Position numbers and translations under genes: made by a program. This document shows positions 9,001 through 64,000 of a stretch of DNA of 64,000 nt, piece by piece. The notes under the pieces were generated by a model, which saw only the letters and a list, made by a program, of their open reading frames with translations, was not told the origin of the DNA and made no database searches. Numbering within the stretch: the stretch's first letter is position 1; each line of letters starts with the position of its first letter. The stretch lies in the NCBI GenBank assembly GCA_030390025.1, contig CM059431.1, forward strand, positions 146,880,001 through 146,944,000, in the 5' to 3' direction. Source of the DNA: Squalus acanthias (lineage: Eukaryota).

Positions 9001-12000
9001 CCATCAATGGATTGGGAAAGTGAATGGACGGATACCATCAATATAATGGGAAAGTGAATGTACAGATACCATCAATGGATTGGGAAAATGAATGGACAGA
9101 TACCATAATTGGATTGGGAAAGTGAATGGACAGATACCATCAATGGATTGGGAAAGTGAATGGACAGATGCCATCATTGGATTGGGAAAGTGAATGGACG
9201 GATACCATCATTGGATTGGGAAAGTGAATGAACAGATACCATCAATGGATTGGGAAAGTGAATGGACGGATACCATAAATATAATGGGAAAGTGAATGTA
9301 CAGATACCATCAATGGATTGGGAAAATGAATGGACAGATACCATAATTGGATTGGGAAAGTGAATGGACAGATACCATCAATGGATTGGGAAATTGAATG
9401 GACAGATGCCATCATTGGATTGGGAAAGTGAATGGACAGATACCATCATTGGATTGGGAAAGTGAATGGACAGCTACCATCAATGGATTTTGGAAAGTCA
9501 ATGGACCGATACCATCAATGGATTGGGAAAGTGAATGGACAGATACCATCAATGGATTGGGAAAGTGAATGGACAGATACCTTCAATGGATTGGGAAAGT
9601 GAATTGACAGATACCATCATTGGATTGGGAAAGTGAATGGACAGATACCATCAATGGATTTTGGAAAGTCAATGGACCGATACCATCAATGGATTGGGAA
9701 AGTGAATGGACACATACCATCAATGGATTGGGAAAGTGAATGGACAGATACCATCAATGGATTGGGAAAGTGAATGGACAGATACCATCATTGGATTGGG
9801 AAAGTGAATGGACAGATACCATCAATGGATTGGGAAAGTCAATGGACCGATACCATCAATGGATTGTGAAAGTGAGTGGACAGCTACCATCAATGAACTG
9901 GGAAAGTGAATGGACAGATACCATCAATGGATTGGGAAAGTGAATGGACAGATACCGTCAATGGATTGGGGAAATCGATGCACAGATACCATCAACAGAT
10001 TGGGAAAGTGAATGGACAGATACCATCAATGGATTGGGAAAGTGAATGGACAGTTACCATCAATGGATTGGAAAATGAATGGAGAGATACCATCAATGGA
10101 CTGAGAAAGTGAATGGACAGATACCATCAATGGCTTGGGAAAGTGAATGGAAGATACCATCACTAGACTGGTAAAGTGACTGGACAGATACCATCAATGG
10201 ATTGGGAAAGTGAATGGACACTTACCATCAATGGATTTGGAATGTGAATGGACAGATATCATCATTGGATTGGGAAAGTTAATGGACAGATACCATCAAT
10301 GGATGGATAAAGTGAATGGACAGCTACCATCATTGGATAGGGAAAGTTAATGGACAGATACCATCATTGGATTGGGGAAGTGAATGGACGGATACCATCA
10401 ATAGATTGGGAAATTGAATGGACAGATACCATCAATAGATTGGGAAAGTGAATGTACAGATACCTTCAATGGGTTGGGAAAGTGAATGGACAGATACCAT
10501 TATTGGATGGGTAAAGTGAATGTACAGATACCTTCAATGGATTGGGAAAGTGAATGGACAGATACCATCAATGGAAAGGAAAATTAATGGACCGATTCCA
10601 TCAATGGATTGTGAAAGTGAATGGACAGATAACTTCATTCTATGGGGAAAGTGAATTGACAGATAACATCAGTGGATTGGAAAAGTGAATGGACAGATAC
10701 CATCATTCGGTGTGGAAAGTGAATGGACAGATACCATCATTGGAGTGGAAAGTGAATGGAAAGATCCCATCAATGGATTGGGAAAGTGAATGGACAGATA
10801 CCATCAATGGACTGGGAAAGTGAATGGACAGATACCATCAATGGATTGGGAAAGTGAATGGACAGATGCTATCAGTGGATTGGGAAAGTGAATGGACAGA
10901 TACCATCAATGGATTGGGAAAGTGAATGGACAGATATCATCATTGGATTGGGGAAGTGAATGGACGGATACCATCAATGGATTGGGAAATTGAATGGACA
11001 GATACCATCAATGGATTGGGAAAGTGAATGAACAGATACCATCAATGGATTGGTAAAGTGAATGGACAGATACAATCAATGGATTGGGAAAGTGAATGGA
11101 CAGATACCATCAATGGATTGGGAAAGTCAATGGACCGATACCATCAATGGATTGGGAAAGTGAATGGACAGAAACCATCATTCGATGGGGAAAGTGAATG
11201 GACAGATACCATCAATGGATTGGGAAAGTGAATGGACGGATACCAACAATAGATTGAGAAAGTGAATGGACAGATACCATCAATGGATTGAGAAAGTGAA
11301 TGGACAGATACCATCAATGGATTGGGAAAGTCAATGGACCGATACCATCAATGGATTGATAAAGTGAATGGACAGATACCATCATTGGATTGGGAAAGTG
11401 AATGGACGGATACCATCAATAGATTGGGAAAGTGAATGGACAGATACCATCAATGGATTGAGAAAGTGAATGGACTGATACATTCAATGGATTGGGAAAG
11501 TGAACGGACAGATACCATCAATGGATTGGGAAAGTGAATGGTCAGATACCATCAATGGACTGGGAAAGTGAATGGACAGATAACATCAATGGATTGGGAA
11601 AGTTAATGGACAGATACCATCAATGAACTGGGAAACTGAATGGACAGATACCTTCAATGGATTGGGAAAGTGAATGGACAGATAACATCAATCAACTGGG
11701 AAAGTGAATGGACAGATACCATCAATGGATTGGGAAAGTGAGTGGACAGATACCATCAATGGATTGGGAAAGTGAATGGACAGTTACCATCAATGGATTG
11801 GGAAAGTGAATGGACAGATATCATTAATGGATTTGGGAAATCAATGAACAGATACCATCAATAGACTGGGAAAGTGAATGGACAGATACCATCAATGGAT
11901 TGGGAAAGGGAATGAACAGATACCATCAATGGATTGATAAAGTGAATGGACAGATACCATCAATGGATTGGGAAAGTGAATGGACAGATATCATCAATGG

Positions 12001-14490
12001 ATTGATAAAGTGAATGGACAGATACCATCAATGGATTGGGAAAGTAAATGGACAGATAGCATCAATGGATTGATAAAGTGAATGGACAGGTACCATTATT
12101 GGATTGGGAAAGTTAAAGAACAGATACCATCAATGGATTGATAAAGTGAATGGACAGATACCATCAAAGGATTGGGAAAGTGAATGGACAGATACCATCA
12201 ATGGATTGGGAAAGTTAATCGACAGATACCATCAATGGATTGGGAAAGTTAATGGACAGATACCATCAATGAAGTGGGAAACTGAATGGACAGATTCCAT
12301 CAATGGATTGGGAAAGTGAACGGACAGATACCATCAATGGATTGGGAAGGAGAATGGCGAGATACCATAAATGGATTGGGAAGTGAATGGACAGCTAACA
12401 TCAATGGACTGGGAAAGTGAATGGACAGATACCATCAATGGATTGGGAATGTGAATGGAGAGATACCATCAATGGATTGGAAAAGTGAATGGACAGTTTC
12501 CATCAATGGAGTGGGAAAGTGAATGGACGGATACCATCAATGGATTGATAAAGAGAATGGACAGATACCATCAATAGATTGGGAAAGTGAATGGACAGAT
12601 ACCATCATTGGATTATGAAAGTGAATGGACGGATACCATTAATAGATCGGGAAAGTGAATTGACAGATACCATCAATGGATTGGGAAAGTGAATGGACAG
12701 ATACCATCAATGGATTGGGAAAGTGAATGGACGGATACCATCAATATAATGGGAAAGTGAATGTACAGATACCATCAATGGATTGGGAAAATGAATGGAC
12801 AGATACCATAATTGGATTGGGAAAGTGAATGGACAGATACCATCAACGGATTGGGAAAGTGAATGGACAGATGCCATCATTGGATTCGGAAAGTGAATGG
12901 ACGGATACCATCATTGGTTTGGGAAAGTGAATGGACAGCTACCATCAATGGATTTTGGAAAGTCAATGGACCGATACCATCAATGGATTGGGAAAGTGAA
13001 TGGACAGATACCATCAATGGATTGGGAAAGTGAATGGACAGATACCATCAATGGATTGGGAAAGTGAATTGACAGATACCATCATTGGATTGGGAAAGTG
13101 AATGGACAGATACCATCAATGGATTTTGGAAAGTCAATGGACCGATACCATCAATGGATTGGGAAAGTGAATGGACACATACCATCAATGGATTGGGAAA
13201 GTGAATGGACAGATACCATCAATGGATTGGGAAAGTGAATGGACAGATACCATCATTGGATTGGGAAAGTGAATGGACAGATACCATCAATGGATTGGGA
13301 AAGTCAATGGACCGATACCATCAATGGATTGGGAAAGTGAGTGGACAGCTACCATCAATGAACTGGGAAAGTGAATGGACAGATACCATCAATGGATTGG
13401 GAAAGTGAATGGACAGATACCGTCAATGGATTGGGGAAATCGATGCACAGATACCATCAACAGATTGGGAACGTGAATGGACAGATACCATCAACGGATT
13501 GGGAAAGTGAATGGACAGATACCATCAATGGATTGGGAAAGTGAATGGAGAGATACCACCAATCGACTGGGAAAGTGAATGGACAGATACCATCAATGGC
13601 TTGGGAAAGTGAATGGAAGATACCTTCACTAGACTGGGAAAGTGACTGGACAGATACCATCAATGGATTGGGAAAGTGAATGGACACTTACCATCAATGG
13701 ATTGGGAAAGTGAATGGACAGATATCATCATTGGATTGGGAAAGTTAATGGACAGATACCATCAATGGATGGATAAAGTGAATGGACGGATACCATCAAT
13801 AGATTGGGAAATTGAATGGACAGATACCATCAATAGATTGGGAAAGTGAATGTACAGATACCTTCAATGGATTGGGAAAGTGAATGGACAGATTCCATCA
13901 TTGGATGGGTAAAGTGAATGTACAGATACCTTCAATGGATTGTGAAAGTGAATGGACAGATACCATCAATGGATTGGGAAAGTGAATGGACCGATTCCAT
14001 CAATGGATTGTGAAAGTGAATGGACAGATAACTTCATTCTATGGGCAAAGTGAATTGACAGATACCATCAGTGGATTGGGAAAGTGAAAGGACAGATACT
14101 CTCATTGGATTGGGAACGTGAATGGGCAGATACCATCATTGGATTGGAAAAGTGAATGGACAGATACCATCATTCGGTGTGGAAAGTGAATGGACAGATA
14201 CCATCATTGGAGTGGAAAAGTGAATGGACAGATCCCATCATTGGATTTGGAAAGTGAATGGACAGATACCATCAATGGACTGGGAAAGTGAATGGACAGA
14301 TACCATCAATGGATTGGGAAAGTGAATGGACAGATGCTATCAGTGGATTGGGAAAGTGAATGAACAGATACCATCAATGGATTGGGAAAATGAATGGACA
14401 GATACCATCAATGGATTGGTGAAGTGAATGGACGGAATCATCAGTGAATTAGGGAATGGGAATGGATTGGGCGGATGAACGGATTGCCAA
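1..14490. repeat. 34-bp tandem satellite, consensus GGGAAAGTGAATGGACAGATACCATCAATGGATT, about 425 copies, open at window start
   Basis: Period read directly (GGGAAAG at 4 and 38); continuous to about 14430, degenerate to about 14490. Confidence 0.98.
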
Positions 14491-15693: not shown

Positions 15694-15892
15694 CAAGTGT
15701 TGACGTGGGGTAAGCCTTCCCCGCGATATCTCACTCCGCGCCTTCCTTTTTCCTCCGGGGCCACACGAACTTTAGTTTCAAGGCTGCAGCTGTGCAGTGC
15801 TTGCGTGACCCAGAGACGGAGTTAGTTCGTGCGAGCTCTGGGATCACGTGATTCAGTTAGAGCCAATGGCAGCACACCATCTTTCATCCATA

Positions 15893-16101
15893 ATAACAAC
15901 AGAAAACGCGGGAAAAACTCAGCAGGCCAGGCAACATCCGTGGAGAGAGAAAGAGAGTTAACGTTTCAGGTCGAAACCCTTCCACGGCCTGAAACATTAA
16001 CTCTCTTTCTCTCTCCACGGATGTTAACTGGCCTGCTGAGTTTTTCCAGCGTTTTCTGTTGTTATTTCGGATTTCCAGCATCCGCAGTATTTTGCTATCG
16101 T
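15893..16101. mobile_element. Fold-back insertion derived from a Penelope terminal sequence
   Basis: About 80-bp inverted arms; matches 21281-21359 and 40468-40580; TSD-like atctttcatccata/atctttcattcata. Confidence 0.75.
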
Positions 16102-16731
16102 ATCTTTCATTCATAGTTTTGACAGAAGATCGGTCAAAGCTATGAATAATATATCCCCCCAAAAGAACAGCTAAACCTCAATTAAATTTTAAAAAAGCCA
16201 TCACATTAATAAAATAAGTATAGTTAAATCAATAATAACACTTTAAACAAAAAATTAAATTTTTGAAAAAATTTAAAATCTTTTTAAAATTTATAAAAAT
16301 AAACTTACCTTTCTTTAAAGTCTCTAAAAAAGATAAACCTGTTGAAAAAAATTTAAAATAATACTTAATTAACTACTTACCTTGTTAAAAGAGGGTCTTA
16401 CGCCTCCTTTCTTTATGTGTAAAATCTTCCATGCTTAGCTGTGCGTTCAAAGCACTCAGTGCACTGCGTGCGCGCAGCCTGTAGCGCCCACACGGTTCAC
16501 CTAGGAACCGCCCCTTTTGAATTCACAAAGTGCCGGTTTCCCGCGCATGCACAGTGAATGCTGGAAACCGGCAATTGGAGACCTAAAACGAGAGAGTACA
16601 CAGTGCGTACTCTCGTGTATTAGGTCTAATTTTCGGCCCATTGTCACAGGAGCTATGACAGTGAGAAATATAGCAGCTGGGCAAAGCACGAGTCATTCGG
16701 AAAAAATCGCCTGGAAATTCAAAATTTTCAT

Positions 16732-31428: not shown

Positions 31429-31575
31429 ATACACACCCACAGTTTATATTTTCACACGGCCTTGTTTGTAGTTCTAACTACTGTCTACACGCCGCAAGTT
31501 TAATTGTTTTTCGGAAACTGCTCTAGCTGTTGTGTATTCTGAGCAGTTTGCTGCTTTATTTCTGCGCGCTGCCAT

Positions 31576-31647
31576 GAACTCGTGGAGCAACGGTAGCGCG
31601 TCTGACTCCAGATCAGAAGGCTGCGTGTTCAAATCACGTCGGGGTCA
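31576..31647 (+). tRNA. TRW-CCA: tRNA-Trp(CCA), near-intact with two stem substitutions
   Basis: 72-nt match to vertebrate Trp-CCA; CTCCAGA loop; B box GTTCAAATC; T run downstream. Confidence 0.85.
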
Positions 31648-32026
31648 GAGCTCTTTTTAGCGTTGATTGGAGTCTGGATAATTCCGTAAACAATATTTTC
31701 TATGCTTTTTCACAATAAACAGAACCTTGCTGTAAAGTGTGTCTCACTAGTTCCCCAGTGGCAGGGAGAGAATGCCAGATGCCCTCGTTTATTTACTGTA
31801 ACAAACTCACACCTCCGTTTTCACATCTGAGGCCGCTGTAAAAGAGCGTGTCCTTTGTGGGAGGGAGACTGTTCTTGAAGTGAAGCCGGTGGGGGGCAGT
31901 CAGTCTGCGTTTGTGAGAGAAATGCGCTGTGCAGGTGGGATTACTGGAGAAGCAAATGCAATTGGTTGAGTGTGTAAAGCAGTACGTGAGCCAATTAAAT
32001 TCGTTGTATGGCCCACCGCCAATCGA

Positions 32027-36897: not shown

Positions 36898-37460
36898 CAT
36901 CAAACTCTCCCAGGGCAGGTACAGCACGGGTTAGATACAGAGTAAAGCTTAATCTACACTCTCCCCTCAAGCACTCCAATGGCAGGTACAGGACGGGTTA
37001 GATAGAGTAAAGTTCACTCTACACTTTCCCATCAAACACTCCCATGGAAGATACAGCACGTGTTAGATACAGAGTAAAGCTTAATCTACAATCTCCCATC
37101 AAGCACTCCAATGGCAAGTACAGCAATGTTTAGATACAGAGTAAAGTTCACTCTACATTTTCCCATCAAACACTTCCAGAGCAGGTACAGGACGGCTTAG
37201 ATACAGAGTAAAGCTTCATTTCTATTGTCCCGTCACTGACGAACAGGGCAGGTACGGCAGGGGCTCAATAAAGTGTAGATCTCGCTGTATTTTGGTTCAG
37301 CATGCACAGCCAACTCAGTTACAGCATGTGCTCAATGCAGTGTAAACCTCCTCTGACACTTTCCAATGAAGCAAATCAACTCAGGTACAGCACGGTACGG
37401 TTACAGGATAAAATCCCTTGTACATGTAATTTTGAAGCACTCCCACTTGAGGTATAGAAA
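36897..37460. repeat. About 67-bp tandem repeat (CCCATCAAACACTCCCAGGGCAGGTACAGCACGGGTTAGATACAGAGTAAAGCT...)
   Basis: Recurrent TTAGATACAGAGTAAAG; decays rightwards. Confidence 0.9.
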
Positions 37461-38599: not shown

Positions 38600-39250
38600 A
38601 ACTTCGTCTACACTGTCCTATCAAACACTTGCAGTTCACGTATGAAACGACAGACATGAAGATTGAATCAACCGCTACACCGTCCCATCAAACACTCCCA
38701 GGTCAGGAACAGCATGGCTTACATACAGTGTAAAACATATTTAAAGCGCCCATAAAACACTCCCACTTCAAGTCAAGCACGAGATATATACTGAGTAAAG
38801 ATCCGTCTAAATTGTCCCATCAAACACTCCCAGGTTAGGTACAGTATGGGTTAAATACAGAGTAAAGCTCTTTCTGCATTTTTCCATCAAACACACCCAG
38901 GTTAGATACAGTACGGGCTAGATACAGAGTAAAGCTCCCTCTAGACTATCTCATAAAACTCTCCCAGCTCAGGAACAGCACGGTTCAGATACAGAGCAAA
39001 GCTCCCTCTACACTGTCCCATCTGAAACTCCCAGTGCAGGTGTTAGATACAGTGATAAGCTCACTGTATAGTCGGTCATCAAGCATAGTGAATTCAGCTA
39101 AGGCATGGGGCCGATGCACGTACAAGTTCTCTGAAACTACCCAATCAAGCTCACCATCTCACGTACAGCATGTTATGAATACAGGACATAAATCTATGTA
39201 CATGTAAGCATGACGCACCCCCAGATTAGGTATGGGCGAGCTTTACATCC
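38600..39250. repeat. Second array of the 67-bp repeat
   Basis: Same unit as 36897-37460. Confidence 0.9.
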
Positions 39251-52561: not shown

Positions 52562-52634
52562 TCCCGGATAGCTCAGTCGGTAGAGCATCAGACTTTTAAT
52601 CTGAGGGTCGAGGGTTCAAGTCCCTATTCGGGCG
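52562..52634 (+). tRNA. TRK-TTT: tRNA-Lys(TTT), near-intact with three substitutions (may be non-functional)
   Basis: 73-nt match to vertebrate Lys-UUU; A and B boxes intact; T5 terminator follows. Confidence 0.85.
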
Positions 52635-52712
52635 CTGCTTTTTAATCGCGATTTTCATCTACACATTCGTGCTCTGATTCTTTAACAGAGATTACAGTAA
52701 CAGGCGAAGGTC

Positions 52713-52814: not shown

Positions 52815-53698
52815 CAGGAGTTGGCCACTTAACCCCTCGAGCCTTTACCTTTGGTTAACAACAATCTATCAAGCTCAGGTTTAAAATTAACAATTGACCC
52901 AGCATCAACTGCTGTTTGCAAACACATTTCTACCACTCATTACATGTAGAAGTGTGTCCTAACTTCACTCCTGAAAGGCTTGGATCTAATATTTATGCTA
53001 GGTCACCTAGTCCTTGACTGGTGAATCATCGGAAATAGCTTCTCTCTATCTACCCTGTCAGTTCCCCTAAATGTCGTGAGTACTTCAATCAAATCACCCC
53101 TTAAGCTTCTAAATTCCAGAGAATACAACCCTAGTTTGTGTTATCTCGCCTCATAATTTAACCCTTGATCTCTATGTATCATTCTGTTAAATCTACACTT
53201 CACTCTTTAAGGCTAATACATCCTTACTAAGTTGTGATGCGCAGACCTGAGCACAGTACTCCAGGTGTGGTCTAATCAGTGTTTTGTGTAGCTGTGGCAT
53301 AACTTCTGCCCCTTATATTGTAGCCCTAAACATATAAATATCACCATTCAATTAGCCTTTTTGATATTTTCTGTACCTGTCCATGACAATTTAAAGATAT
53401 ATGTACATGGACCCTTAAGTCTCGTTGGATATCCACTGGTTCCAGCTATTCACCATTTGGAAAGTATTCCGATCTCTCCATTTTAGATCCAAAATGGTTG
53501 ACCTCACATTTTCTTATATTTAAATCAATTTGCCAAATTTTTGTCCAAAAACTTAATCTATTAATATCTCTTCTAATTTCATGCTTCCATCAAACCTGCT
53601 TATATGCGGCCTATCGTCAAACGTGGATATGTGGCTCTCAATCCCATCTACTTACTCGTTAATAAAAGCGGTGAAAATATGAGGCACAAAAATAGATC
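52815..53698 (-). mobile_element. Old CR1 fragment, interrupted by the ERV LTR
   Basis: Paralogous to 49480-50450; similarity stops at AATAGATC. Confidence 0.8.
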
Positions 53699-53937
53699 TG
53701 TCCTGGTAAACTTTCTGGATCTCCATTTGACAGAATCTATAAGTGACCAAATGCACCGGAAAGCTTTGAGGGCAAGAGACTGTTGGTTAAAAACATTTGC
53801 AAAACTTATAATGAGCTGGTACATTTCCGTCAGAAGATAAGTTGTTGAAAACTCTGTGAGAACCTCAACAGCCCTGCAGATATGAAAAACAGTGACTTCT
53901 CCAGTCCTTGGAGTCTGGCCTTGGAGAGCTGAACGTC

Positions 53938-53975
<38 letters not shown>

Positions 53976-54372
53976 CAACATTCCCCACAGTTTGGGACAT
54001 GAATGCTGGGGGCCAGTTGCCCAGTTTTGGGTTATAATTGTTTTTGGACACTGAGATTCGCGGCTATAGTCGATGGTGCCCTGGTCAAGTGCCAGTTACA
54101 GTTAGTCATACGTCTGTCATCGTTGAATTTTCCTCTCATCTGGTGAACAGTATGTATGTAGTTTTACTTATAATCATCTGAGCTTAAAGTCAATGATTTT
54201 AGATGCTTGCTTGTGATAAGTTGATGAATTCAGTGCAGTTTGTATCCTGGGATGTACTTGTAACCTTTTGTTAATTTTTAAGTAAACGAGGTTTCACAGA
54301 TTCATTGGGTTTTGTGTTGTCTGTTCCCGAGTCTGAACTCTATAAACTCTCAGACAATCAGAACGTCTTACA
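53699..54372 (+). repeat. Putative 5' LTR
   Basis: Starts TGT at the CR1 breakpoint, ends ACA 5 nt before the PBS; contains (GA)n and AGTAAA; 3' LTR not in window. Confidence 0.6.
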
Positions 54373-54377
54373 GATCC

Positions 54378-54395
54378 TGGTGCCGGAACAGGGAC
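54378..54395 (+). promoter_or_regulatory. Primer binding site for tRNA-Lys(UUU)
   Basis: TGGTGCCGGAACAGGGAC versus TGGCGCCCGAACAGGGAC (16/18). Confidence 0.85.
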
Positions 54396-54421
54396 TCGTT
54401 CGGAACAACCTGTCAAAAACA

Positions 54422-56102
54422 ATGGATGAGTTAGTCAGGAAATATGTGAGAGCGAAGTTACCCCTCAGGGTGGGGTGGGTAAGGGTCATTATTGATGGTG
54501 CTGACCCAGTGGCTGAGGCTGAACAGCGGAGCCAAGGGTCCACCTGCCGGCCAAGGATGGTAAAGGCCGTCTGGTTAATGGCAGACCAGAGACAGTTTAA
54601 GAATGATGTGTGTAAAAATGGCTCAGATGCAGAAGGAGATGGAAGAGATGGCAAAGGATGTCCGTGATAAGGAAGCGGTTGCAAAACGGCTTCGATCGCA
54701 ATTAGACGACGAAAGATAAATTAAGAAGAGGCTGAGGGGACAGCTTAAAAATGTAAAGGAGAGGTGGTGTAATAAAGGGCAGTACCGTGAGAGCCGGTGT
54801 GTAAATAATCACAATCAGTGTGGTGTTTGGTCAGAGGAGGCGGCCAATCAGAGAGATCGGGCAGAACGAGCAGAGAAAGCTGATGAGGATCTGAAGGCTG
54901 CATTCAGGGTCACTCAGTGACAGGCTCTGGAGGACCGGAGTGCTGCCGGGATCACACTGAATGGAAGGAATTGATTAGGGAGCTGGGGGAAAAGTTGAAG
55001 GTCCAGAGGTGTATTGTGTGGGCCAGGACTCCTGTGTTTGGAGGAGATCTGCAGGATAGCAAAGGGGTTGATAAAAATCACCCGGATGGGGGCCCACAAC
55101 CTGGAAATAGCCCACCGGAGGGAGTCAGACCCCCACCTGTGGCCCTGATGTGTAACAAGCGGTCCCAGGCACCGGCCGTGGGGGCGGGTGAAAGAGCGTT
55201 GGGGGCGCTAGAGAGGGAGCTTGTGGACCCGCATAATACTGAGGAGTTAAGGAAAATGTCCAGTGATATGAACAAGCTGGCAATGGGAGGGGACCCCCAA
55301 GGACATTATCTGGAGGGAGAACAGAGGTCCGCTTTAAATCACCTGGTTGAGGAGGTAAAGAATCGCTTGCTGCTATTTACCCTGAGCTCCAGTGTCGTTG
55401 CTGGACTTCCACCAGAGATTAAGAGGGGAGAGGGCACTGACGATGCGCTAAATTTGAGGGTTGCCCAGGTTTTGGGACAGGGTACAGGGGATCATTTGAA
55501 GGCCGTGGCGGACGTGGATCAAGGCCCACACGAACACCCAGCTTTTGCTGACAGGTTATGGCCGACCTATAATGCGCCATGGGAGGGGCGGTAAGGAGAG
55601 CAGACCTCGACGGAGAAGCGCGGAACTATTGGTTGTGGACACTGATCTCCCACAGTCTGCCCTATTTACAAGCCGGAATGGCGGACTTTGACCCAGGAGA
55701 TATCACCAATACTGAGGTCAGGGTGCTGCGGAAAATGACCCTGCGTTTCGAGGCGCGCCAGGTCGATAAAAATAACTCCGGGGTAATAAGCAAGTCAAAA
55801 GGCAAGGTCTATGAAATGAAGGGAGGGGGGGGGGGGGCGCACCTCGGAAGTGGCTACAAGAGGGGAGTCAGGGAAAGAAGTGCTCTGCCTGTGGGGTGGT
55901 GGGACATTATGCACTGAACTGTAAAAGATCACCTGGGAAAGAAATGGTTGAGGCTGCCCCACGAGAGGCAGGATCTCAGCCCAGCGCCCCCAGTTATCAG
56001 GATTTCATTAGATATGTAGCTAATCAGATGAAGGAGCTTGAACCATCTCAAGGAAAGGTCCACGCGGCCCATGGGGAGGATCGCGGGGAGACCCGAGCAT
56101 GA
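54422..56102 (+). pseudogene. gag: Gag-like region, disrupted: coiled-coil N-terminus and one CCHC knuckle
   Basis: KEMEEMAKDVRDKEAVAKRLRSQL; CSACGVVGHYALNC at 55881-55922. Confidence 0.75.
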
Positions 56103-59100
56103 CGGGGCCGCGCCCAGCCCGAGTATCTGTGTCCACTCAGGTACGGTGATTGGGGAAGTCCGTGTGTAAACATCCTGATTGAGGGCGAGAGAGGGGACTA
56201 TCTGATAGACACTGGAGCGTGAAGCAGGGTAGATCCACTCTCCCACCCCGATGTGGTCTCCCTGGTCAAGTGGCGCCCCCTATGTTTTAGGAGGTTTCAC
56301 GAGTAACTCAGCAGCTGGGGCGGTCTCAGAACGTTTAATCTTCACACAAAGTGGAGATGTTTACTAATGAAATGGGATCAGCCAGGAATGGGAGTGCTGG
56401 GCTCTGACTGGATGTTGGCTCACAATGTGACAGTGGATATGGATAATAACTGTTACTGGGGCGGAGTGGACTGTGGTGAAGAAGTAATCGTTATACACCC
56501 GAGACATGGAGAAGCGTGTGTGGTAACACCTGCGGGACCCGATGACTTAGAAACACTAACGGCCAGGGTGCCCGAGAGCTATCAAACCGCAGTGCAGAAT
56601 ATCAAGGGTGCTTGTGCTACCCACAGACATGATTGTGGAAGGGTGACAGGACGTGAGGTGGGTGTGGAGGGTGAGCCAATGTCCCGGCCCCAGAAACAGT
56701 GCACGTTCCCCAAGGAAGCAGAGAGAGAGACTGAGAAAAAGCGGTTGCGTCCTTAGTAGAACAAGGGGTCCTGAGACCTATTGTGACGCATGTTAACTCT
56801 CCTGTTTGGCCAGTAAAGAAGCCAGACAATTCCTGGCGGATGACTGTAGATTACACAGTCTTGAATAAAACCATCCCTGCTTGTGCTCCCACAGGAGCAG
56901 CTGTGATTGATTTAATCGGCAACATTCCCAGCTCTGTCCCTGTGTGCCTAGTATTGGACATATCTAATGGATTCTGGTCAATTCCCTCACACCCGCAGGA
57001 CCAGTATAAGTTTGCGTTTACCTTTAAATGTCAGCAGTATGCGTTGACTTGTTTGCCACAGGGATTCCACAATAGCCCGTCTATTGTCCACCAGTGTATG
57101 GCTAACAGCCTATCAGAATTCAGTCAGCCAGGCCAGCTTGTGCAGGATGAGGATGATTCACTGCTGTTCTCAGATAGCGAAGAGGAACATGAGGAACTAC
57201 TGCAGGAAGTGTTAGAATCGCTTGCAGCCGTAGGTTTCAAGGTAAATTCCAAGAAGGCACAGATTGGGCAAAGAGAGGTTCAGTTTCTTAGATTGACAAT
57301 TCTACCAGGGGAGCGCGCGATAGACGAAGCAAAGCGCAAAACTGTCTAGGAATTGCACCGCCGGGTTCATTAGCTGCTCTCAGATCATTCCTGGGTCTGA
57401 TAGGGTTCTGTAGAGAATTTATTGATAATTAGGCAGCGACGGCAGCTCCTTTGCTGAGATTACTCAGAAAGGGAGTGGAATGGGATTTGGATGAGCGCTA
57501 TGAGGAAGCTTTTGTAAATTTGAAAAAGGACCTACACACAGCCCCAGCATTGGGGCCGGAGACCCTAAGATTACTTCTTTTTGGAATTAGCGGCAACAGA
57601 CGTCAATCTGAGTGCAGTTTTAATGCAGGAAGTGAATGGGAGTCTGAGAACAGTTGCTTATGTCACCAAAGTGCTATCTGAGGTGGAGAAGGGATACTCT
57701 ACCTGTGAGCGGCACTTGCTGGCCACATTCTGGGCAGTGAAGCATTTTGCCGTATTCCCGGGGACCCAGCCCATCACTCTCCTCACCCACCACACGCCAA
57801 CTCGCCTCCAGTTAGAAGGCCGAATTAAGCAGGGAACAGTGTCAAGCACTCGGGTAGGTACATGGACCCTACAGTTAGAAGGGATGAATCTGAAAGTGAA
57901 ACTGATAAACGATCTGAAATTAGCACCCAGCCTTATATATATGGGGGAACCCCACACTTGTACAGTCGAGGGGGTGTGGGAAACAGAAGGCAGATTCAAA
58001 CCTGGTATCCACCCTGAAGGGAGAGACATATATGTGGATGGGTCTAGTTTTGTGGAAAAGGGGGAACGTAAAACAGGATGTGGAATTTACGACCCACAGA
58101 AAGGAATGGAAGTGGCGATTAAGCTACCCACCACTCTCAGTGCTCAGCAGGCAGAGATGGCAGCTGGAACTTCTGTGGTAACACATCTCACCGATTTCAC
58201 CCCGCCCTATACGATCTGCTCTGACTCTATGTTTACATGTGATTCTTGCACAGAATATTTGGCGATTTGGGCTGGAAGAGGTTTTAAATCAGCAGATGGC
58301 AAGCCACTGGTTACCGCGCCAATGCTGGCAAACACATCGGAAGTCATAAGAAGGGGAGGCGAGGAATACTATATCCATAAGGTCAAATCCCACTCTAAAG
58401 CAGAACCCAGACGGGAGGGAAATAGGAAAGCAGACGAGCTTGCTAAGGTGGGAGCGGAGATCGGGGTCCCGTGGGACCCGTATCAATCGGGAGTGGGAGC
58501 AGTCATCACTCCGGCTGTTACTATTCCGCTTCCCCCGGATATCAAAACAATAAAGCTGACAAATGTGGTGCTAAAAGCTGCCCTCAAGGAAAGAGAAGCA
58601 GGTCAGATTGTAGAAGGGCTTATGGGGCCAAAGATGTAAACATCAGGTAAGGTATGTTTTTCAAAGGAGAGAAGTGGATTGTGCCCGAGGGATACAGGGA
58701 GGAATACATGCAACTCGCTCACGGAGGACTGGGGGCTGGACACACCGGACCCGAAACAACCTGGAAGCGGGTCGAGGAGGTAGGGTGGTGGCCTCATCTG
58801 AGGAAAGACATAGAAGATTAGTGTAAAACCTGTTCAGTGTGTGCTGCTAACAATCCTGACCCACATAAAAGAAAGGCTCCCCTCGGACACCCCCGTCGAC
58901 GAGAGGGAACGTGGCAGTGTATCCAGATAGATTTTATCGGACCCCTGCCCAACACTAAGAAGGACAATAAATATTGTCTAGTCCAAGTGGAGAATTTTAC
59001 CAAGTGAGTCGAAGCTTTCCCGTGCAAGTGTGCCGCAGCATTGTGGACGGCCAAGACCCTAGTTAAGCACATATTTTCTAGATGGGGGCTCCCTCGATTG

Positions 59101-59720
59101 GTAGAGTCAGACCAAGGGAGTCATTTTACAGGGCAAGTGATGCAAGCCACCCTGAAATTGTTTACAATTGAAGGGAAATTGCACGTAACCCACAACCCGC
59201 AGTAATCAGGGATTGTGGAAAGAATAAACCGCACGTTGAAGTTGGCCCTGCGAAAGGAATTAAACAAACAGCGCACTAAGTGGGATGAGGTACTTCCCCT
59301 AATCCTTATGGGGATACATAGTAACAAATCCAAAGGAGCGGGTCACTCCCCTCAGAATTGGTAACAGGGAGGCCCATGCGATCCCCCACACACCTGTTGG
59401 CTCCCACTCTGATAAACAAATGAAAGAAGTCACTCGGGACAAATTCCTGAGCGACCTGTGGGGAACTTTGAAAGAACTGAACTTGAGAGCCGCCCACAAC
59501 ATTGGGAAGACAAATCAACGCAACAGATTACACCTGACTCCGAGTAAACCCCAGGAGTGGGAACTAGAGAGCCAGGTAATGGTAGGAAACTATGGAGGGT
59601 GGGAGTTTGCGAACGCCTCTGCAAGGGACCGTATAACATTGTTTCAAAGCTTGTCCTATGATATAGGCGATTCAGTTACCTCAGAAAATCAAATGGTTTC
59701 ACATTAATCAGATGAAGCTG
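56103..59720 (+). pseudogene. pol: Pol, disrupted: protease, RT, tether, RNase H, integrase
   Basis: YLIDTGA; NSPVWPVKKPDNSWRMTVDY, LDISNGFW, LPQGFHNSP, QDEDD; YVDGSS/SAQQAE/SDS/GNRKAD; HHCC finger, QIDFIGP, SDQGSHF, GIVERINRTLK. Confidence 0.93.
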
Positions 59721-60040
59721 TTTCAGCCCACAAGCAGGTCAAGAAGACAGCAAGCCGCGATCATGAGCATGGTGAGACTGACTCAGCCGCTCCAATGGGA
59801 TGATGGAGAAGGGGTGCCTAATGCGGCGCCCCCACCTGAGGCACCTCCGTGTGACGAGCTGCCTCCCTAGGTACAGGATGGTGGTTACAATCGGAGGCAA
59901 CGACCTGGGAAACGGCCAAGGCTGTCCAGTGAATAGTCAGTGCAGAGCCTAAAAGACCAATGGTGGGAAGAAGGGAGGCGGGACTGGGAGTAACTCTCCG
60001 CTTTGTTCCCCTCTTCCACAGGCCAGAACAAGATAGAGAA

Positions 60041-63000
60041 ATGGGGAGGATATTTTGGTTGCTGTGTGACATCGCGCTCCATCTCGAAAGGGCAGCTGGA
60101 ACTCATGGGGAAGCATCCAGCGATTCAAGTTACGGCAGTCAGATTACCATTGCCCCGTAACTCCGACCCAAGGTATCGCTCGGGAGGTTACCCTCCGATC
60201 TATCAAGGGCATGTGTGACACAAGTTGTTCAGGAATAGTCCGGGTAACCACATACACGGTCCAAGAATGGAGGGGAACAGGTATAAAGTGTAAGAGTGGG
60301 ACTGTGAATCAGCCGTGTGTATGATTCATTCAGGCAAAGGTGGAGACAATACTGGTTACCGCCAGATAGGAGACCCTTGGGGATATAATGGGAGCCCAAC
60401 TCAATGGGAAGACCATGGGGAAACCATGTTGTGTTGGTCAAGGTGGGGCCAGGAGCCTGAGGGTATATATGGATGTGTAAACCTTCGACCAGGCCCACTG
60501 GAGAATTGGGTTAATTTTGGGTCCCAATTCCCGGTTTGCAGCCTTTCTCCTGCATTTGTGTCCGGTGCAGAAAATGACCCCCGTCATCACTGGATGCTGG
60601 GTGAAAAGGAGGGAGGGCTGGGCCATGAAATGTGTGTTACTGATCATGTATCGGAATGTGGAAACGGAACCACAGTTACCAGAGAATTCAAAGTGAAAGT
60701 CTGTCCTAAAGTCCCTCCCCCCCCCCCCCCCCACCCCCGCAAATAAAACACAATGGCGGGAAGAACAAGAGAAACCCGGGTTGTCTCCCAAACAGACTCC
60801 GGGGCCGACACATGGGTTAGTGGGAGTCCCAACTCGGATATTGTTCCATGATGTGCATCACCAGGTGGTGCCTGTGATATTAAATTTGACCGACGTGGGA
60901 ATACCGGACTGGTGGAAACCAGAAACAGCGCGGTTATATGGGAGAATGGTGTGGGATTTAAGAAAAATGATTTTTGGAATGAGCCAGCACAAATTTGGGG
61001 GAATCGGAATTCGACCCATTGGCCCAGAAATTGCAGTGTGAGGGTTCGTGCGAGGGTAAGCCCTTCCCGCGATGTCTCACTGCGCGTTGGCTTTTTCAGT
61101 CCCAGCTCGCTGGAACTTCATGTTCCAGCCATCAGCTGCGAGTGCATCGTGATCCCACAGTGCGAAGTTAGTTCGAGCGTACTGTGGGATCACGTGACTG
61201 AGTTACAGCCAATGGCAGCACACCAAGCTCTCATTCATAGAATTCACAGCGGCCATTGAACTGCTGTGAAAACTAGGAATACAACAAGCCCCCAAAAGAA
61301 GAGCTAAACCTCCATTAAATTAAAAAAAAAACCCATCACATAATTAAAATAAGTGTAATTAAATAAATTAACCTTTTTAAACAAAAAAAATAAATTTTTG
61401 AAAAAATTTTAAATCTTTTAAAATGTTATAAAAATAAACTTACCTGTCTTTAAAGTCGCTACTAAAGATTTACCTGTAAAAAAAAATTCTAAATACTACT
61501 TAATTATGTACTTACCTGGTTAAAAGAGTCTCCTGCGCTTCCTTTTTTCTTTTCCAGATTCTTCAATACTTACCTGCGTGCGCAAGCGATGAAGTGCACT
61601 GCGTGCGCGCAGCCTGTAGCGCGCACGCGGTGCACTGAGGACCCGCCCCCTTTTCGAAAGATCAATTGCCGGTTTTCAGTGCATGCGCAGTGCATGCTGA
61701 AAACCGGCAATTGAAGTCTGGCTGCGTGAGTGTACACTGTGCGTACTCTCGCGCAGCCGGATCAATTTCTGGGCCATTATCTCGCAGGGGATCAGGAGAT
61801 GGTAATGGATTTAACAATAACGTTGGGGAAATACTGAGATCACTGAAGGAAACAACGTCGGTTAGGGGGTTAAACGGGACCATATCAGAACACGACGGGG
61901 TCTGATAAATGATTCAGCCAATGTTTTTAATACCGGAACCACCCTCGTTAATAGTCTTGATTTGGCTAATTTGGATCAATCCGTAAAGGCAGTTAGAAAA
62001 CGTGTAAAGGAAATTCTGAATAAAATGAATGATCTGGAACAAGAGGAATTGAAGGAGGACCAAATTATGATACATTGATCTGCAGGACATGGTTAACTAT
62101 TTAGAATCTTACGCTAAAAGGTTAAACCAAATTTTAAAGGAGAATCTGAATGCCTCTAGTGAGGCCGCACGAAATGATGTTTGTGTAATGTATGGATCCT
62201 GGTTAGTGGAACAAGCCCGTGATAACCTGCAGAGCATTGCTGAGGGGAACTCCCATTGTGGGTGACTGATCGACACCTGAGGGCAATGTCCACTTATCAA
62301 TTTACCATCAATATGTGTAAAGTCAGGGGGTTGGTACAGGTATACCCGGTGAAACATGAATGCCATTTGCAGGAACAGAACGACATCACCTTATTAGGGA
62401 TGGTGTTGGATTATCCTATCCTGCGCGAAAAGGCGACCCCGAATCCTCTATTCCGTGTGGAGAATAGAGGAGTACGCTAGGGAGACCGCTTAGTAAGGTA
62501 TGACAAACCCCCGCAGTATGTGACCCGGGGGGATGGGACCACAAGGGTGGCCCCACATCTTACCGGGTGCGCTCAAGCTCGGGACACACTCATCTGCCCT
62601 TATGACGTGTTAGAACACGCAGCCCCTTTGTCCGGTTTCGATTGGGATGGGATAGAGTGAAACTGCATCATGAAAGTAGTAGCAGGAAAGCATTTCCCCG
62701 TACAATCTGGGTACCGAGGGAAAGGTGAGTATTGTGTCACCACCATACACCGGGAATACCTGTATGGTAACAACCTGACTTGTCCCATTGTGGCGGGAAC
62801 TTTTTGCTTTACCCCAGTTCAACCTGTAAGACTTGGGGCGCGGGTTTATTAAGCATTTATTCGCATGGGCAAGTAGATATCGCTGTAGAAGATAAATTAA
62901 AAGAGCAATTACACCAGTACGTGACTCGATTCCGCTATGACATTCCACCTCTACCAGAACAACTGGTAGAGTTAATGCAACGAGTTAGTTAGTCTCAAAA

Positions 63001-63163
63001 GTACTTTTATACGCTGTCCCAGATAAACCGGAACCTACGCAAAGAAATATATAAGATTGGGGACGATTCATTCTGGTGGGATATCGGTATGAGTATTGAG
63101 GTTCATCCCTGGATAAGAATTATCTCCCACGATTTGTTCATTGTTCAGTTGGTGATTTTGTTA
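60041..63163 (+). pseudogene. env: Env-like class I fusion glycoprotein, disrupted and split by a MITE
   Basis: RTRR|GLIND at 61887-61913, heptad helix, Cys-rich region, second helix, FWWD and hydrophobic LFIVQLVILL; start approximate. Confidence 0.75.
61021..61775. mobile_element. 755-bp MITE inserted in env
   Basis: Perfect 13-bp TIR GGCCCAGAAATTG/CAATTTCTGGGCC; ATT TSD on both sides. Confidence 0.92.
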
Positions 63164-64000
63164 TAGAAACATAGAAACATAGATGATAGGAGCAGGAGTA
63201 GGCCATTGGGCCCCTCGAGCCTGCTCCGCCATTTAATGACATCATGGCTGATCATCCAAATTCAGTACCCTGTCCCTGCTTTCTCCCCATATCCCTTGAT
63301 CACTTTAGCCTGAAGAAATACATTTATCTCCTTCTTGAATATATTTAATTAATTGGCCTCAACTGCCTTCTTTGGGACAGAATTCCACAGGTTAACCACT
63401 CTTTGGGTGAAGAAATTCCTCCTCATCTCAGTCCTAAATGGTTTACCCCTTATCCTTAGACTGTGACCGCTGGTTCTGCACACCCCAGCCATCTAGTCTG
63501 TCTAGTCCTGTTAGAATTTTATAAGTTGCAATGAGATCTCCTCTCATTCTTCTAAACTGTAGCGAATAAAAGCCTAATCGACCCAATCGCTCTTTATATG
63601 TCATTCCTGCCATCCCAGGTATCAGTCTGGTGAATCTTCGCTGCACTCTCTCCATGGCAAGAACATCCTTCTTCAGATAAGGCGACCAAAACTGCACACA
63701 ATATTCAAGGTGTGGTCTCACCAAGGCCCTGTAAAGCTATAGCAAGACATCCTTGCTCCTGTATTTGAATCCTCTCGCTATGAAGGCAGACATACCATTT
63801 GACTTCTTAACCACCTGCTGCACCTGCGTGCTTACCTTCAGCGACTGGTGCACAAGGACACCCAGGTGTCGTTGCACTTCCCCTTCTTCCAATCTATTGC
63901 CGTTCAGATAATAATCTGCCTTCCTGTTTTTGCTACCAAAGTGGATAACCTCGCATGTATCCACATTATTACATCATCTGCCATGCATCTGCCCAATCAC
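63163..64000 (-). mobile_element. CR1 LINE 3' part, runs off window
   Basis: (ATAGAAAC)n tail; [16 protein letters not shown]. Confidence 0.95.

What the first reader, a model, noticed from the sequence alone, without database searches (positions are those of the whole stretch)
53699..63163. Lokiretrovirus-like endogenous retrovirus in a probable cartilaginous fish
Seen: Lys PBS, coiled-coil Gag with a CCHC knuckle, spuma/loki-style RT (NSPVWPVKKPD), two RNase H folds, gypsy-like integrase and an atypical Env. Known: foamy Gags lack CCHC knuckles; lokiretroviruses are a sister lineage to other retroviruses with Mononegavirales-F-like Env, and as I recall were reported from lampreys, bony fishes, amphibians and reptiles. 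Inference: this is a Loki-like or new basal lineage in a host group where I do not recall it being described.
Basis: partly seen in the sequence, partly recalled or inferred. Interest (0 to 1): 0.85.

Follow-up and report, generated by a model that had tools for sequence, protein, structure and literature searches.

The report
Dead shark provirus, not a lokiretrovirus
This is a broken, old retrovirus copy in a probable shark or ray genome whose reverse transcriptase belongs with true retroviruses (the snakehead-retrovirus-like group) rather than lokiretroviruses, although its integrase and envelope look Loki-like, which bears on what the first retroviruses carried.

Summary
The provirus is real: 5' LTR 53699-54372, Lys PBS, coiled-coil/CCHC Gag, in-frame TGA before pol, PR-RT-tether-RH-IN, F-type Env, 3' LTR just beyond the window. 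It is dead (stops, frameshifts, two insertions in env). It is not a lokiretrovirus: RT motif B' is LPQG (24 of 24 published Loki rows have PFG), RT groups with canonical retroviruses (100/98), and joining Loki is disfavoured (AU 0.016-0.057). It forms a clade (95/92) of elasmobranch, coelacanth and frog ERVs, apart from foamy viruses. Sisterhood with snakehead retrovirus (SnRV) is unresolved, but Gag layout, readthrough and best RT score point there, and SnRV-like ERVs are already published from a cartilaginous fish. What stays interesting: the integrase rejects SnRV (AU 0.007) and fits Loki (0.46), the tether is Loki-like, and Env is F-like by language-model features only (folding failed). 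A sister family has about 60 open pol frames and, in 3 of 3 copies checked, LTRs 99.8-99.9% identical. The scan reached the same non-Loki reading for three other copies in this genome.

The parts
53699..54372 (+). 5' LTR, 674 nt, TGT...TACA
   Evidence: R-U5 part 88% identical to the 3' LTR beyond the window
54378..54395 (+). Primer-binding site for tRNA-Lys(UUU), 5 nt behind the LTR
   Evidence: 18/18 in 3 of 4 sister copies
54422..56102 (+). gag, broken by stops and frameshifts; ends in TGA in frame with pol
54609..54720 (+). Coiled-coil segment within gag
   Evidence: heptad score above 100 of 100 shuffles
55878..55919 (+). Single CCHC zinc knuckle (nucleocapsid)
56100..56105 (+). gag-pol junction TGA CGG, presumed readthrough site
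   Evidence: TGA at this place in 29 of 30 locus rows, 25 distinct places; readthrough itself is inferred
56103..59744 (+). pol: protease, RT (catalytic motif degenerate), tether, RNase H, integrase; broken
   Evidence: 44-65% identical to an intact sister pol
60040..63165 (+). env, F-type by features; variable N-terminal part, cleavage site and fusion peptide near 61898, cut off inside the membrane anchor; start approximate
61102..61780 (.). High-copy repeat inserted into env (a related copy lies near window 15767-16615)
63166..64000 (-). LINE fragment inserted at the end of env; separates env from the 3' LTR, which lies outside the window (L036 1426-2125)

Best explanation
A decayed endogenous retrovirus of an elasmobranch, from a deep branch of canonical retroviruses: the RT-defined class III / clade Huo / 'SnRV-like' assemblage, within which it forms its own subclade with coelacanth and frog ERVs. 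When alive it worked like SnRV. LTR-driven genomic RNA was primed by a host tRNA (Lys here, Arg in the sister family and SnRV). Gag had a coiled coil, capsid and one zinc knuckle. Pol was made by reading through the single stop codon after gag. Integration left a 4-bp target duplication. Entry used an F-type (class Ib-like) fusion Env with a variable N-terminal part. This copy integrated long ago, decayed, took two insertions in env and was then multiplied with its flank by host segmental duplication. Shown: anatomy, decay, RT placement outside Loki, Gypsy and foamy viruses, flank sharing. Inferred: readthrough, Env fold, filing under SnRV-like/Huo, host class.
For: RT motif B' LPQG, as in 27 of 27 canonical retrovirus rows (LPQ) and 0 of 24 Loki rows (PFG) of PMC7947760 supplement. 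RT trees: canonical retroviruses incl. window 100/99 (68 rows) and 100/98 (54 rows); 17-row clade 95/92 = elasmobranch rows (98/96) sister to coelacanth+frog+unlabelled rows (91/88); foamy incl. this genome's own foamy-like family separate at 100/100. phmmer bits of the window RT: SnRV 152.7, prototype foamy 121.3, ERV-L-like 117.4, best Loki-like 116.3, WDSV-like 109.6, MLV 97. SnRV genome L056: 618-aa Gag with coiled coil and one CCHC, TAG in frame with pol, Arg-type PBS; 0 of 4 foamy genomes have a CCHC. Published: CmiERV lineage I of Callorhinchus clusters with SnRV (PMC4422223); SnRV-like is the main ERV class of coelacanth (PMC4977317); clade Huo is in all major vertebrate lineages (PMC6001957). 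Flank 52865-53698 is shared at 84-88% by 7 of 8 close copies checked.
Against: SnRV is never a supported sister: it sits in a basal polytomy in both careful trees, joined only in one quick tree without foamy rows (SH-aLRT 93), and groups with gamma/epsilon in the RT-tether-RH tree. Integrase rejects joining SnRV (AU 0.007) and fits Loki (0.46) (quick tree). Tether scores: Loki 51-73 bits, SnRV 32, foamy 10 or less; IN: Loki 203-214 (full-length rows), SnRV 125. No significant sequence link of Env or Gag to SnRV (Env hhalign score 27.9 against shuffles up to 27.0 and reversed 27.4; Gag probability 11.5%). Joining foamy viruses is not rejected (AU 0.10-0.24). CmiERV-I, ERV-S, Odin, teleost FLERVs and alpha/beta/delta/lenti sequences were not in my trees.
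Confidence: 0.63

Rival explanations
1. An unnamed lineage of its own: the earliest (or one of the earliest) branches of canonical retroviruses, which kept the ancestral Loki-like tether, integrase and F-type Env while SnRV, ERV-L and gamma/epsilon viruses changed theirs; it has been lumped under 'SnRV-like' only by RT. A variant: a recombinant that took its integrase from a Loki-like donor.
For: Earliest-branch position not rejected by RT (AU 0.41, same as foamy-earliest 0.40). IN rejects SnRV, fits Loki. Tether far better kept than in other canonical retroviruses. RH tree puts the group on the Loki+foamy side of SnRV (SH-aLRT 88). The clade splits as elasmobranch versus coelacanth+frog, like the hosts.
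Against: Slowly evolving domains resemble each other by shared ancestry, and long branches can pull the fast ones together. RH does not join Loki (AU 0.045). Only 2 Loki rows were in the IN tree. Gag layout and readthrough are SnRV-like. Hosts of several rows are unknown.
Confidence: 0.23
2. A foamy-related lineage (sister to Spumaretrovirinae and FLERVs) that kept CCHC Gag and gag-pol readthrough.
For: Best PDB hit of RT is foamy (E=2e-34); AU tests do not reject joining foamy (0.095, 0.24, 0.17); Lys PBS, 4-bp target duplication and F-like Env are foamy traits.
Against: The PDB holds no SnRV; SnRV scores higher. The genome's real foamy-like family is 52% identical to foamy RT and groups with it at 100/100, while this family is 36-40%. 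Protease is A2-type (RVP, gag-asp_proteas; no Spuma A9 hit), no foamy Env or Gag Pfam hit; tether and IN scores to foamy are the lowest.
Confidence: 0.08
3. A lokiretrovirus in a cartilaginous fish.
For: Dual RNase H with a well-kept tether, IN close to Loki rows, coiled coil before capsid, F-like Env. None of 6 chondrichthyan genomes in PMC7947760 is marked Loki-positive, so it would be new. One of three AU tests stayed just above 0.05 (0.057).
Against: RT motif mismatch with 24 of 24 Loki rows; Loki clade 97-99 without it; AU 0.016 and 0.027; the one Loki polyprotein excerpt seen runs from coiled coil to protease without a stop or CCHC; a Loki-like Pol query finds nothing above 36% identity in this genome (stricter first look, so absence is not proven).
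Confidence: 0.05
4. An ordinary Ty3/Gypsy element with a captured envelope.
For: Pfam integrase and tether families are shared with Gypsy; some database names say 'Gypsy retrotransposon integrase-like'.
Against: Dual RNase H; RT excluded from Gypsy at 100/100.
Confidence: 0.01

Closest known systems
Snakehead retrovirus (SnRV) and SnRV-like / clade Huo / class III ERVs (PMC12193657, PMC6001957, PMC4977317), incl. CmiERV lineage I of Callorhinchus milii (PMC4422223)
   Same: Highest RT score among named references; coiled-coil Gag with one CCHC; in-frame stop between gag and pol; Arg PBS in the sister family; Env with similar layout and the same top Atlas families (0.89/0.88, lead only).
   Different: TGA not TAG at the junction; Lys PBS in this family; integrase and tether closer to Loki than to SnRV; no SnRV-type 3'ORF seen (env end lies about 150-200 nt before the LTR in copies checked); LTRs 0.7 and 1.6 kb; sisterhood unsupported. 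CmiERV-I could not be compared.
Lokiretroviruses / lokiorterviruses (PMC7947760, PMC9040795)
   Same: Dual RNase H with recognisable tether, CGIN1/NYNRIN-like integrase, coiled coil upstream of capsid, F-like Env.
   Different: RT motif and tree position; CCHC knuckle and stop-separated gag-pol here.
Foamy viruses and FLERVs (PMC5512871, PMC11468914)
   Same: LPQG-type RT, Lys PBS, F-like Env class, 4-bp target duplication.
   Different: CCHC present, A2-type protease, pol in frame with gag; a separate true foamy-like family exists in this genome.
Unnamed database proteins called 'NYNRIN-like' from Heptranchias, Latimeria, Pyxicephalus, Rhinophrynus, Aquarana, Xenopus (P0001, P0005, P0007-P0010)
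   Same: Same RT clade (95/92); 42-45% identity over RT-RH for coelacanth and frogs, 89% over RH for Heptranchias versus the sister family.
   Different: Their Gag, Env and LTRs were not fetched, so the shared architecture is untested.

Membership tests
Lokiretrovirus | RT falls in the Loki clade, outside canonical retroviruses | tested here: not met
   AU 0.016, 0.057, 0.027. Loki rows were natural database proteins labelled by motif match to published rows.
Lokiretrovirus | RT motif B' xPFG (my observation on the published alignment, not a stated criterion) | tested here: not met
   24 of 24 Loki rows PFG; window LPQG
Lokiretrovirus | Dual RNase H (tether + RH) | tested here: met
   shared with all retroviruses
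Lokiretrovirus | Integrase close to Loki/CGIN1 | tested here: met
   (against Loki rows; CGIN1 itself was not available)
Lokiretrovirus | Env with detectable similarity to PF00523 | tested here: inconclusive
   No Pfam or PDB hit; Atlas features Baculo_F 0.93, Fusion_gly 0.91; model failed
Lokiretrovirus | Separate smc gene (some members) | tested here: not met
   Coiled coil lies inside the single 626-aa gag frame of the sister family
Canonical Retroviridae | RT clade membership, LTR-gag-pol-env-LTR, PBS, PPT | tested here: met
SnRV-like / clade Huo | RT groups with SnRV | tested here: inconclusive
   93; unresolved; AU 0.32, 0.34
SnRV-like / clade Huo | Gag with coiled coil and one CCHC; pol by stop readthrough | tested here: met
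   SnRV junction as in PMC13517186; layout only, sequence similarity weak
SnRV-like / clade Huo | Integrase of the SnRV/ERV-L type | tested here: not met
   AU 0.007 (quick tree, 46 rows)
SnRV-like / clade Huo | Grouping with published SnRV-like ERVs (CmiERV-I, Hayward 2015 set) | not testable with these tools
   Those sequences are not held as loci or proteins here
Spumaretrovirinae / FLERV | RT inside the foamy clade | tested here: not met
   Foamy + shark foamy-like 100/100 without the window; a sister position is not rejected
Spumaretrovirinae / FLERV | Gag without CCHC; A9 protease; pol expressed apart from gag | tested here: not met
Ty3/Gypsy (Metaviridae) | RT in Gypsy, single RNase H | tested here: not met

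The most novel reading that the evidence does not exclude
This elasmobranch-coelacanth-amphibian clade is the earliest-branching canonical retrovirus lineage and a living bridge to Loki: retroviral RT on a Loki-type tether and integrase, with an F-type Env. F-type Env would then be present in Loki, foamy viruses, SnRV and this clade, hence ancestral, and gamma/beta-type Env a later replacement inside Orthoretrovirinae, against the independent-acquisition model preferred in PMC9040795. The clade may have co-diverged with jawed vertebrates, is a candidate donor of the RNase H-integrase part of mammalian NYNRIN/CGIN1, and was still spreading very recently in this host.
Probability: 0.2. Interest if true: 0.78.

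Novelty: new variant of a known kind. Interest (0 to 1): 0.42.

Why it matters
The Loki headline falls, and SnRV-like ERVs in cartilaginous fish are known, so the host-range claim is not new. What could matter is the mosaic. Published work says Loki Env is F-like and unlike canonical retroviral Env, and prefers two separate Env acquisitions (PMC9040795); foamy Env has since been shown F-like (PMC11468914). A third and fourth canonical lineage with F-type Env, one of them with Loki-type tether and integrase, would make a single ancestral F-type Env the simpler reading, and that is testable by one structure and one well-sampled tree. The young sister family shows the lineage entered or spread in a shark-type germ line recently.

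Tried and rejected
Env folding failed: sister-family Env core with 25 rows, pLDDT 41.7; SnRV Env alone, pLDDT 36; Foldseek on the first gave 0 matches at E<=0.001. Env profile against PDB: nothing. Profile comparison Env versus SnRV and versus 15 foamy Envs: not above controls (shuffle controls were run for SnRV Env only). tRNA-targeted integration: a tRNA-Lys gene lies 1.06 kb upstream, but 0 of 17 flanking loci of other copies hold a tRNA; rejected as chance. Readthrough-stimulating RNA structure behind the sister family's stop: no support (z=+1.36). My first U3 comparison used a wrong LTR start and was redone. L047/L046 'LTR pair' was a LINE match and was dropped. Expression: no RNA holder listed; the one guessed RNA run covers mainly the inserted repeats; neither is evidence. 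Metagenome scan gave one 1.9-kb fragment. CmiFLERV/XtrFLERV and CGIN1 rows were not found in the readable supplements (the file is cut at 300 of 318 pages). Two AU tests did not finish (17-row earliest; RH+foamy). Trees used 80, 68, 44 and 54 rows chosen by hand from 270 RT-bearing hits plus loci; dropped rows were mostly redundant Gypsy, gamma and epsilon rows, and the long ERV-L-like row in the last tree. PMC12287698 could not be read.
Full report
1. What is there. The window is G000:C7:146880001-146944000 of a 3.71-Gb assembly. The provirus starts at 53699 with the TGT of a 674-nt LTR ending TTACA at 54372; its sequence matches the 3' LTRs of other copies from that point on. Five letters later comes a tRNA-Lys(UUU) PBS (16 of 18; 18 of 18 in 3 of 4 sister copies). 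gag (54422-56102) holds a coiled-coil stretch and one CX2CX4HX4C and ends in TGA in frame with pol. pol has protease, RT, tether, RNase H and integrase. env (about 60040-63165) has a variable N-terminal part, a basic cleavage site with fusion peptide and heptad repeat near 61898, and is cut inside its membrane anchor by a LINE; a high-copy repeat sits at 61102-61780. A PPT and 700-nt 3' LTR lie beyond the window (L036 1426-2125). All three genes carry stops and frame changes and the RT catalytic motif is degenerate. Contigs of three DNA runs cover 30 of 30 bins.

2. Age and copies. The R-U5 halves of the LTRs are 88% identical (K2P 0.13); the U3 halves align only weakly (score 158, 200 shuffles at most 77) and the flanks match at 3 of 4 letters, so the pair may be recombinant. 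With the two rates quoted in PMC4422223 (2.2e-9 and 2.2e-10 per site per year) 0.13 gives 30 to 300 million years: old, not dated. Of 150 scored RT matches, 19 (window included) are 83-100% identical; 7 of 8 checked share the upstream flank at 84-88%, so they are mostly host duplications of one insertion. Most other scored matches are a sister family at about 73%; about 60 of the 150 (hand count) lie in stop-free frames of 1,480 aa or more. In 3 of 3 such copies examined gag (626-627 aa) and pol (1,506-1,507 aa) are in frame across TGA CTAG, env is open over 640-850 aa, LTRs are about 1.6 kb and 99.8-99.9% identical, target duplications match 4/4, 3/4, 3/4, and the PBS is complementary to host tRNA-Arg(TCG). 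These natural copies served as stand-ins for broken domains; they group with the window RT at 100/99-100.

3. Host. Closest database relatives are all elasmobranch: Heptranchias for RH-IN, Rhinoraja and Pristiophorus for Env (3 of 3 hits). Five exons of a host gene match a sawshark protein at 64-87% (no bony-fish control). An elasmobranch host is very likely (about 0.9) but inferred.

4. Not Loki. In the RT alignment of PMC7947760 (supplement parts 74-75) 24 of 24 Loki rows read xPFG in motif B' and 27 of 27 canonical rows LPQ; the window reads LPQG. Database protein P0013 matches the published SnRV row over the first 120 RT residues, and L056 is the 10,688-nt SnRV genome. Natural Loki-like proteins were labelled by motif match; 15 foamy genomes came from IMG/VR. 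Careful IQ-TREE runs (LG+G4) give Loki 99/99 and 97/93, canonical retroviruses with the window 100/99 and 100/98, Gypsy outside at 100/100 (bootstrap not fully settled). Forcing the lineage to Loki costs 33-42 log-likelihood units (AU 0.016, 0.057, 0.027). A Loki-like Pol query finds at best 36% identity in this genome (reduced sensitivity).

5. Where it sits. In the best-sampled tree it lies in a 17-row clade (95/92): 8 rows, 7 of this genome plus one unnamed Logan protein (98/96), sister to coelacanth, frog and unlabelled rows (91/88). Foamy viruses with this genome's own foamy-like family (52% to foamy RT) form another clade (100/100). SnRV is unresolved at the base. Joining SnRV (AU 0.32, 0.34), joining foamy (0.10-0.24) and being the earliest canonical branch (0.41) are all allowed by RT. 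For SnRV speak the RT score (152.7 bits against 121.3 for foamy and 116.3 for Loki), the Gag layout, in-frame stop and Arg PBS, and the literature: CmiERV lineage I with SnRV (PMC4422223), SnRV-like as main coelacanth class (PMC4977317, citing Hayward 2015, which I did not see), clade Huo across vertebrates (PMC6001957).

6. Results against that filing. By domain, the tether scores 51-73 bits to Loki rows, 32 to SnRV, 10 or less to foamy; integrase 203-214 to full-length Loki rows, 125 to SnRV, 101-128 to foamy. On the integrase tree (quick, 46 rows, 2 Loki rows) joining SnRV is rejected (AU 0.007), joining Loki is not (0.46); on RNase H joining Loki is marginally rejected (0.045) and SnRV is not (0.15). 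In the RT-tether-RH tree SnRV goes with gamma/epsilon.

7. Env. No Pfam or PDB match. ESM Atlas features rank Baculo_F (0.93) and Fusion_gly (0.91) first (shuffled proteins reach 0.9 in 4-10 of 100); SnRV Env gives the same families at 0.89 and 0.88 (lead only). By eye the cysteine spacing and layout behind the cleavage site run parallel to SnRV Env, but this is not significant against shuffles, and folding failed. F-type is likely (about 0.8), not shown. The N-terminal part differs between the window's family and the sister family, as expected of a swapped or fast-evolving receptor-binding region (inference).

8. Mechanism. Shown: anatomy, decay, duplication with flank. Inferred: tRNA-primed reverse transcription; Gag-Pol by UGA readthrough (TGA kept in 29 of 30 locus rows, many not independent; UGA junctions are reported for some fish and frog retroviruses and UAG for SnRV, PMC13517186; that CGG and CUAG behind UGA favour readthrough is recalled, not from a call; no downstream structure found); entry by a cleaved F-type fusogen.

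9. Novelty. Loki in cartilaginous fish would be new (0 of 6 genomes marked) but is not what this is. SnRV-like ERVs in cartilaginous fish are published. I found no paper describing F-type Env or a Loki-type integrase in SnRV-like ERVs in searches of the open library; subscription papers and bioRxiv supplements are not covered. Verdict: new variant of a known kind, interest 0.42; the bridge-lineage reading has about 0.2 probability.

10. Papers seen. PMC7947760: main text parts 1-3 of 4, supplement parts 1, 69, 71, 74, 75 and term searches (last 18 pages cut). PMC4422223: part 1 of 2 and a supplement snippet. Passages only: PMC9040795, PMC12440569, PMC10699275, PMC5512871 (plus supplement term search), PMC12193657, PMC13517186, PMC6001957, PMC10435555, PMC11468914, PMC12583693, PMC9447858, PMC4977317, bioRxiv 10.1101/2021.11.23.469661. 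Earlier scan notes were read after my reading was formed; three agree, one led me to add the shark foamy-like rows.

Noticed in passing
window 1-14466: A 34-bp satellite array of more than 400 copies, about 90% alike, with strong strand skew.
   Followed up: no
window 52562-52635 and 31575-31648: tRNA-Lys(TTT) gene 1.06 kb upstream of the LTR, the same isoacceptor as the PBS; a tRNA-Trp gene elsewhere. Not shared by 17 flanking loci of other copies, so probably chance.
   Followed up: yes
L036 616-1124 (just beyond the window): The PPT plus first letters of the 3' LTR have been amplified into a short tandem array (units of about 29 and 58 nt), followed by a LINE tail and then the full LTR.
   Followed up: partly
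L031, L033, L034 (sister family): The PBS lies 5 nt behind the LTR and overlaps an ATG in frame with gag; target duplications mismatch at the last letter in 2 of 3 copies whose LTRs are 99.8-99.9% identical. Unexplained; may reflect unusual end processing.
   Followed up: partly
P0003 residues about 1240-1506: The sister family's Pol carries a roughly 270-aa acidic, proline-rich tail behind the integrase SH3 domain; window 59744-60000 may be its counterpart.
   Followed up: no
P0275 residues about 85-170; P0276 about 33-95: The N-terminal part of sister-family Env and of SnRV Env show an Ig-like cysteine/tryptophan pattern by eye; Pfam gave no Ig hit.
   Followed up: no
L106-L135: A separate, true foamy-like ERV family (about 52% to foamy RT) in the same genome, some copies with open frames over 1,100 aa.
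   Followed up: partly
G000:C26 about 39.0-42.2 Mb (L104, L105): Tandem arrays of tRNA-Arg(TCG) genes at about 1.62-kb spacing; 429 exact matches of the pattern genome-wide.
   Followed up: no
P0279, P0280: Database gene models of a sawshark fuse this Env family to host Niban-like and cadherin-like genes; probably annotation chimeras, co-option untested.
   Followed up: no
window 36898-37216, 38675-39041: 67-bp minisatellite arrays, recalled as typical of shark genomes; not tested.
   Followed up: no
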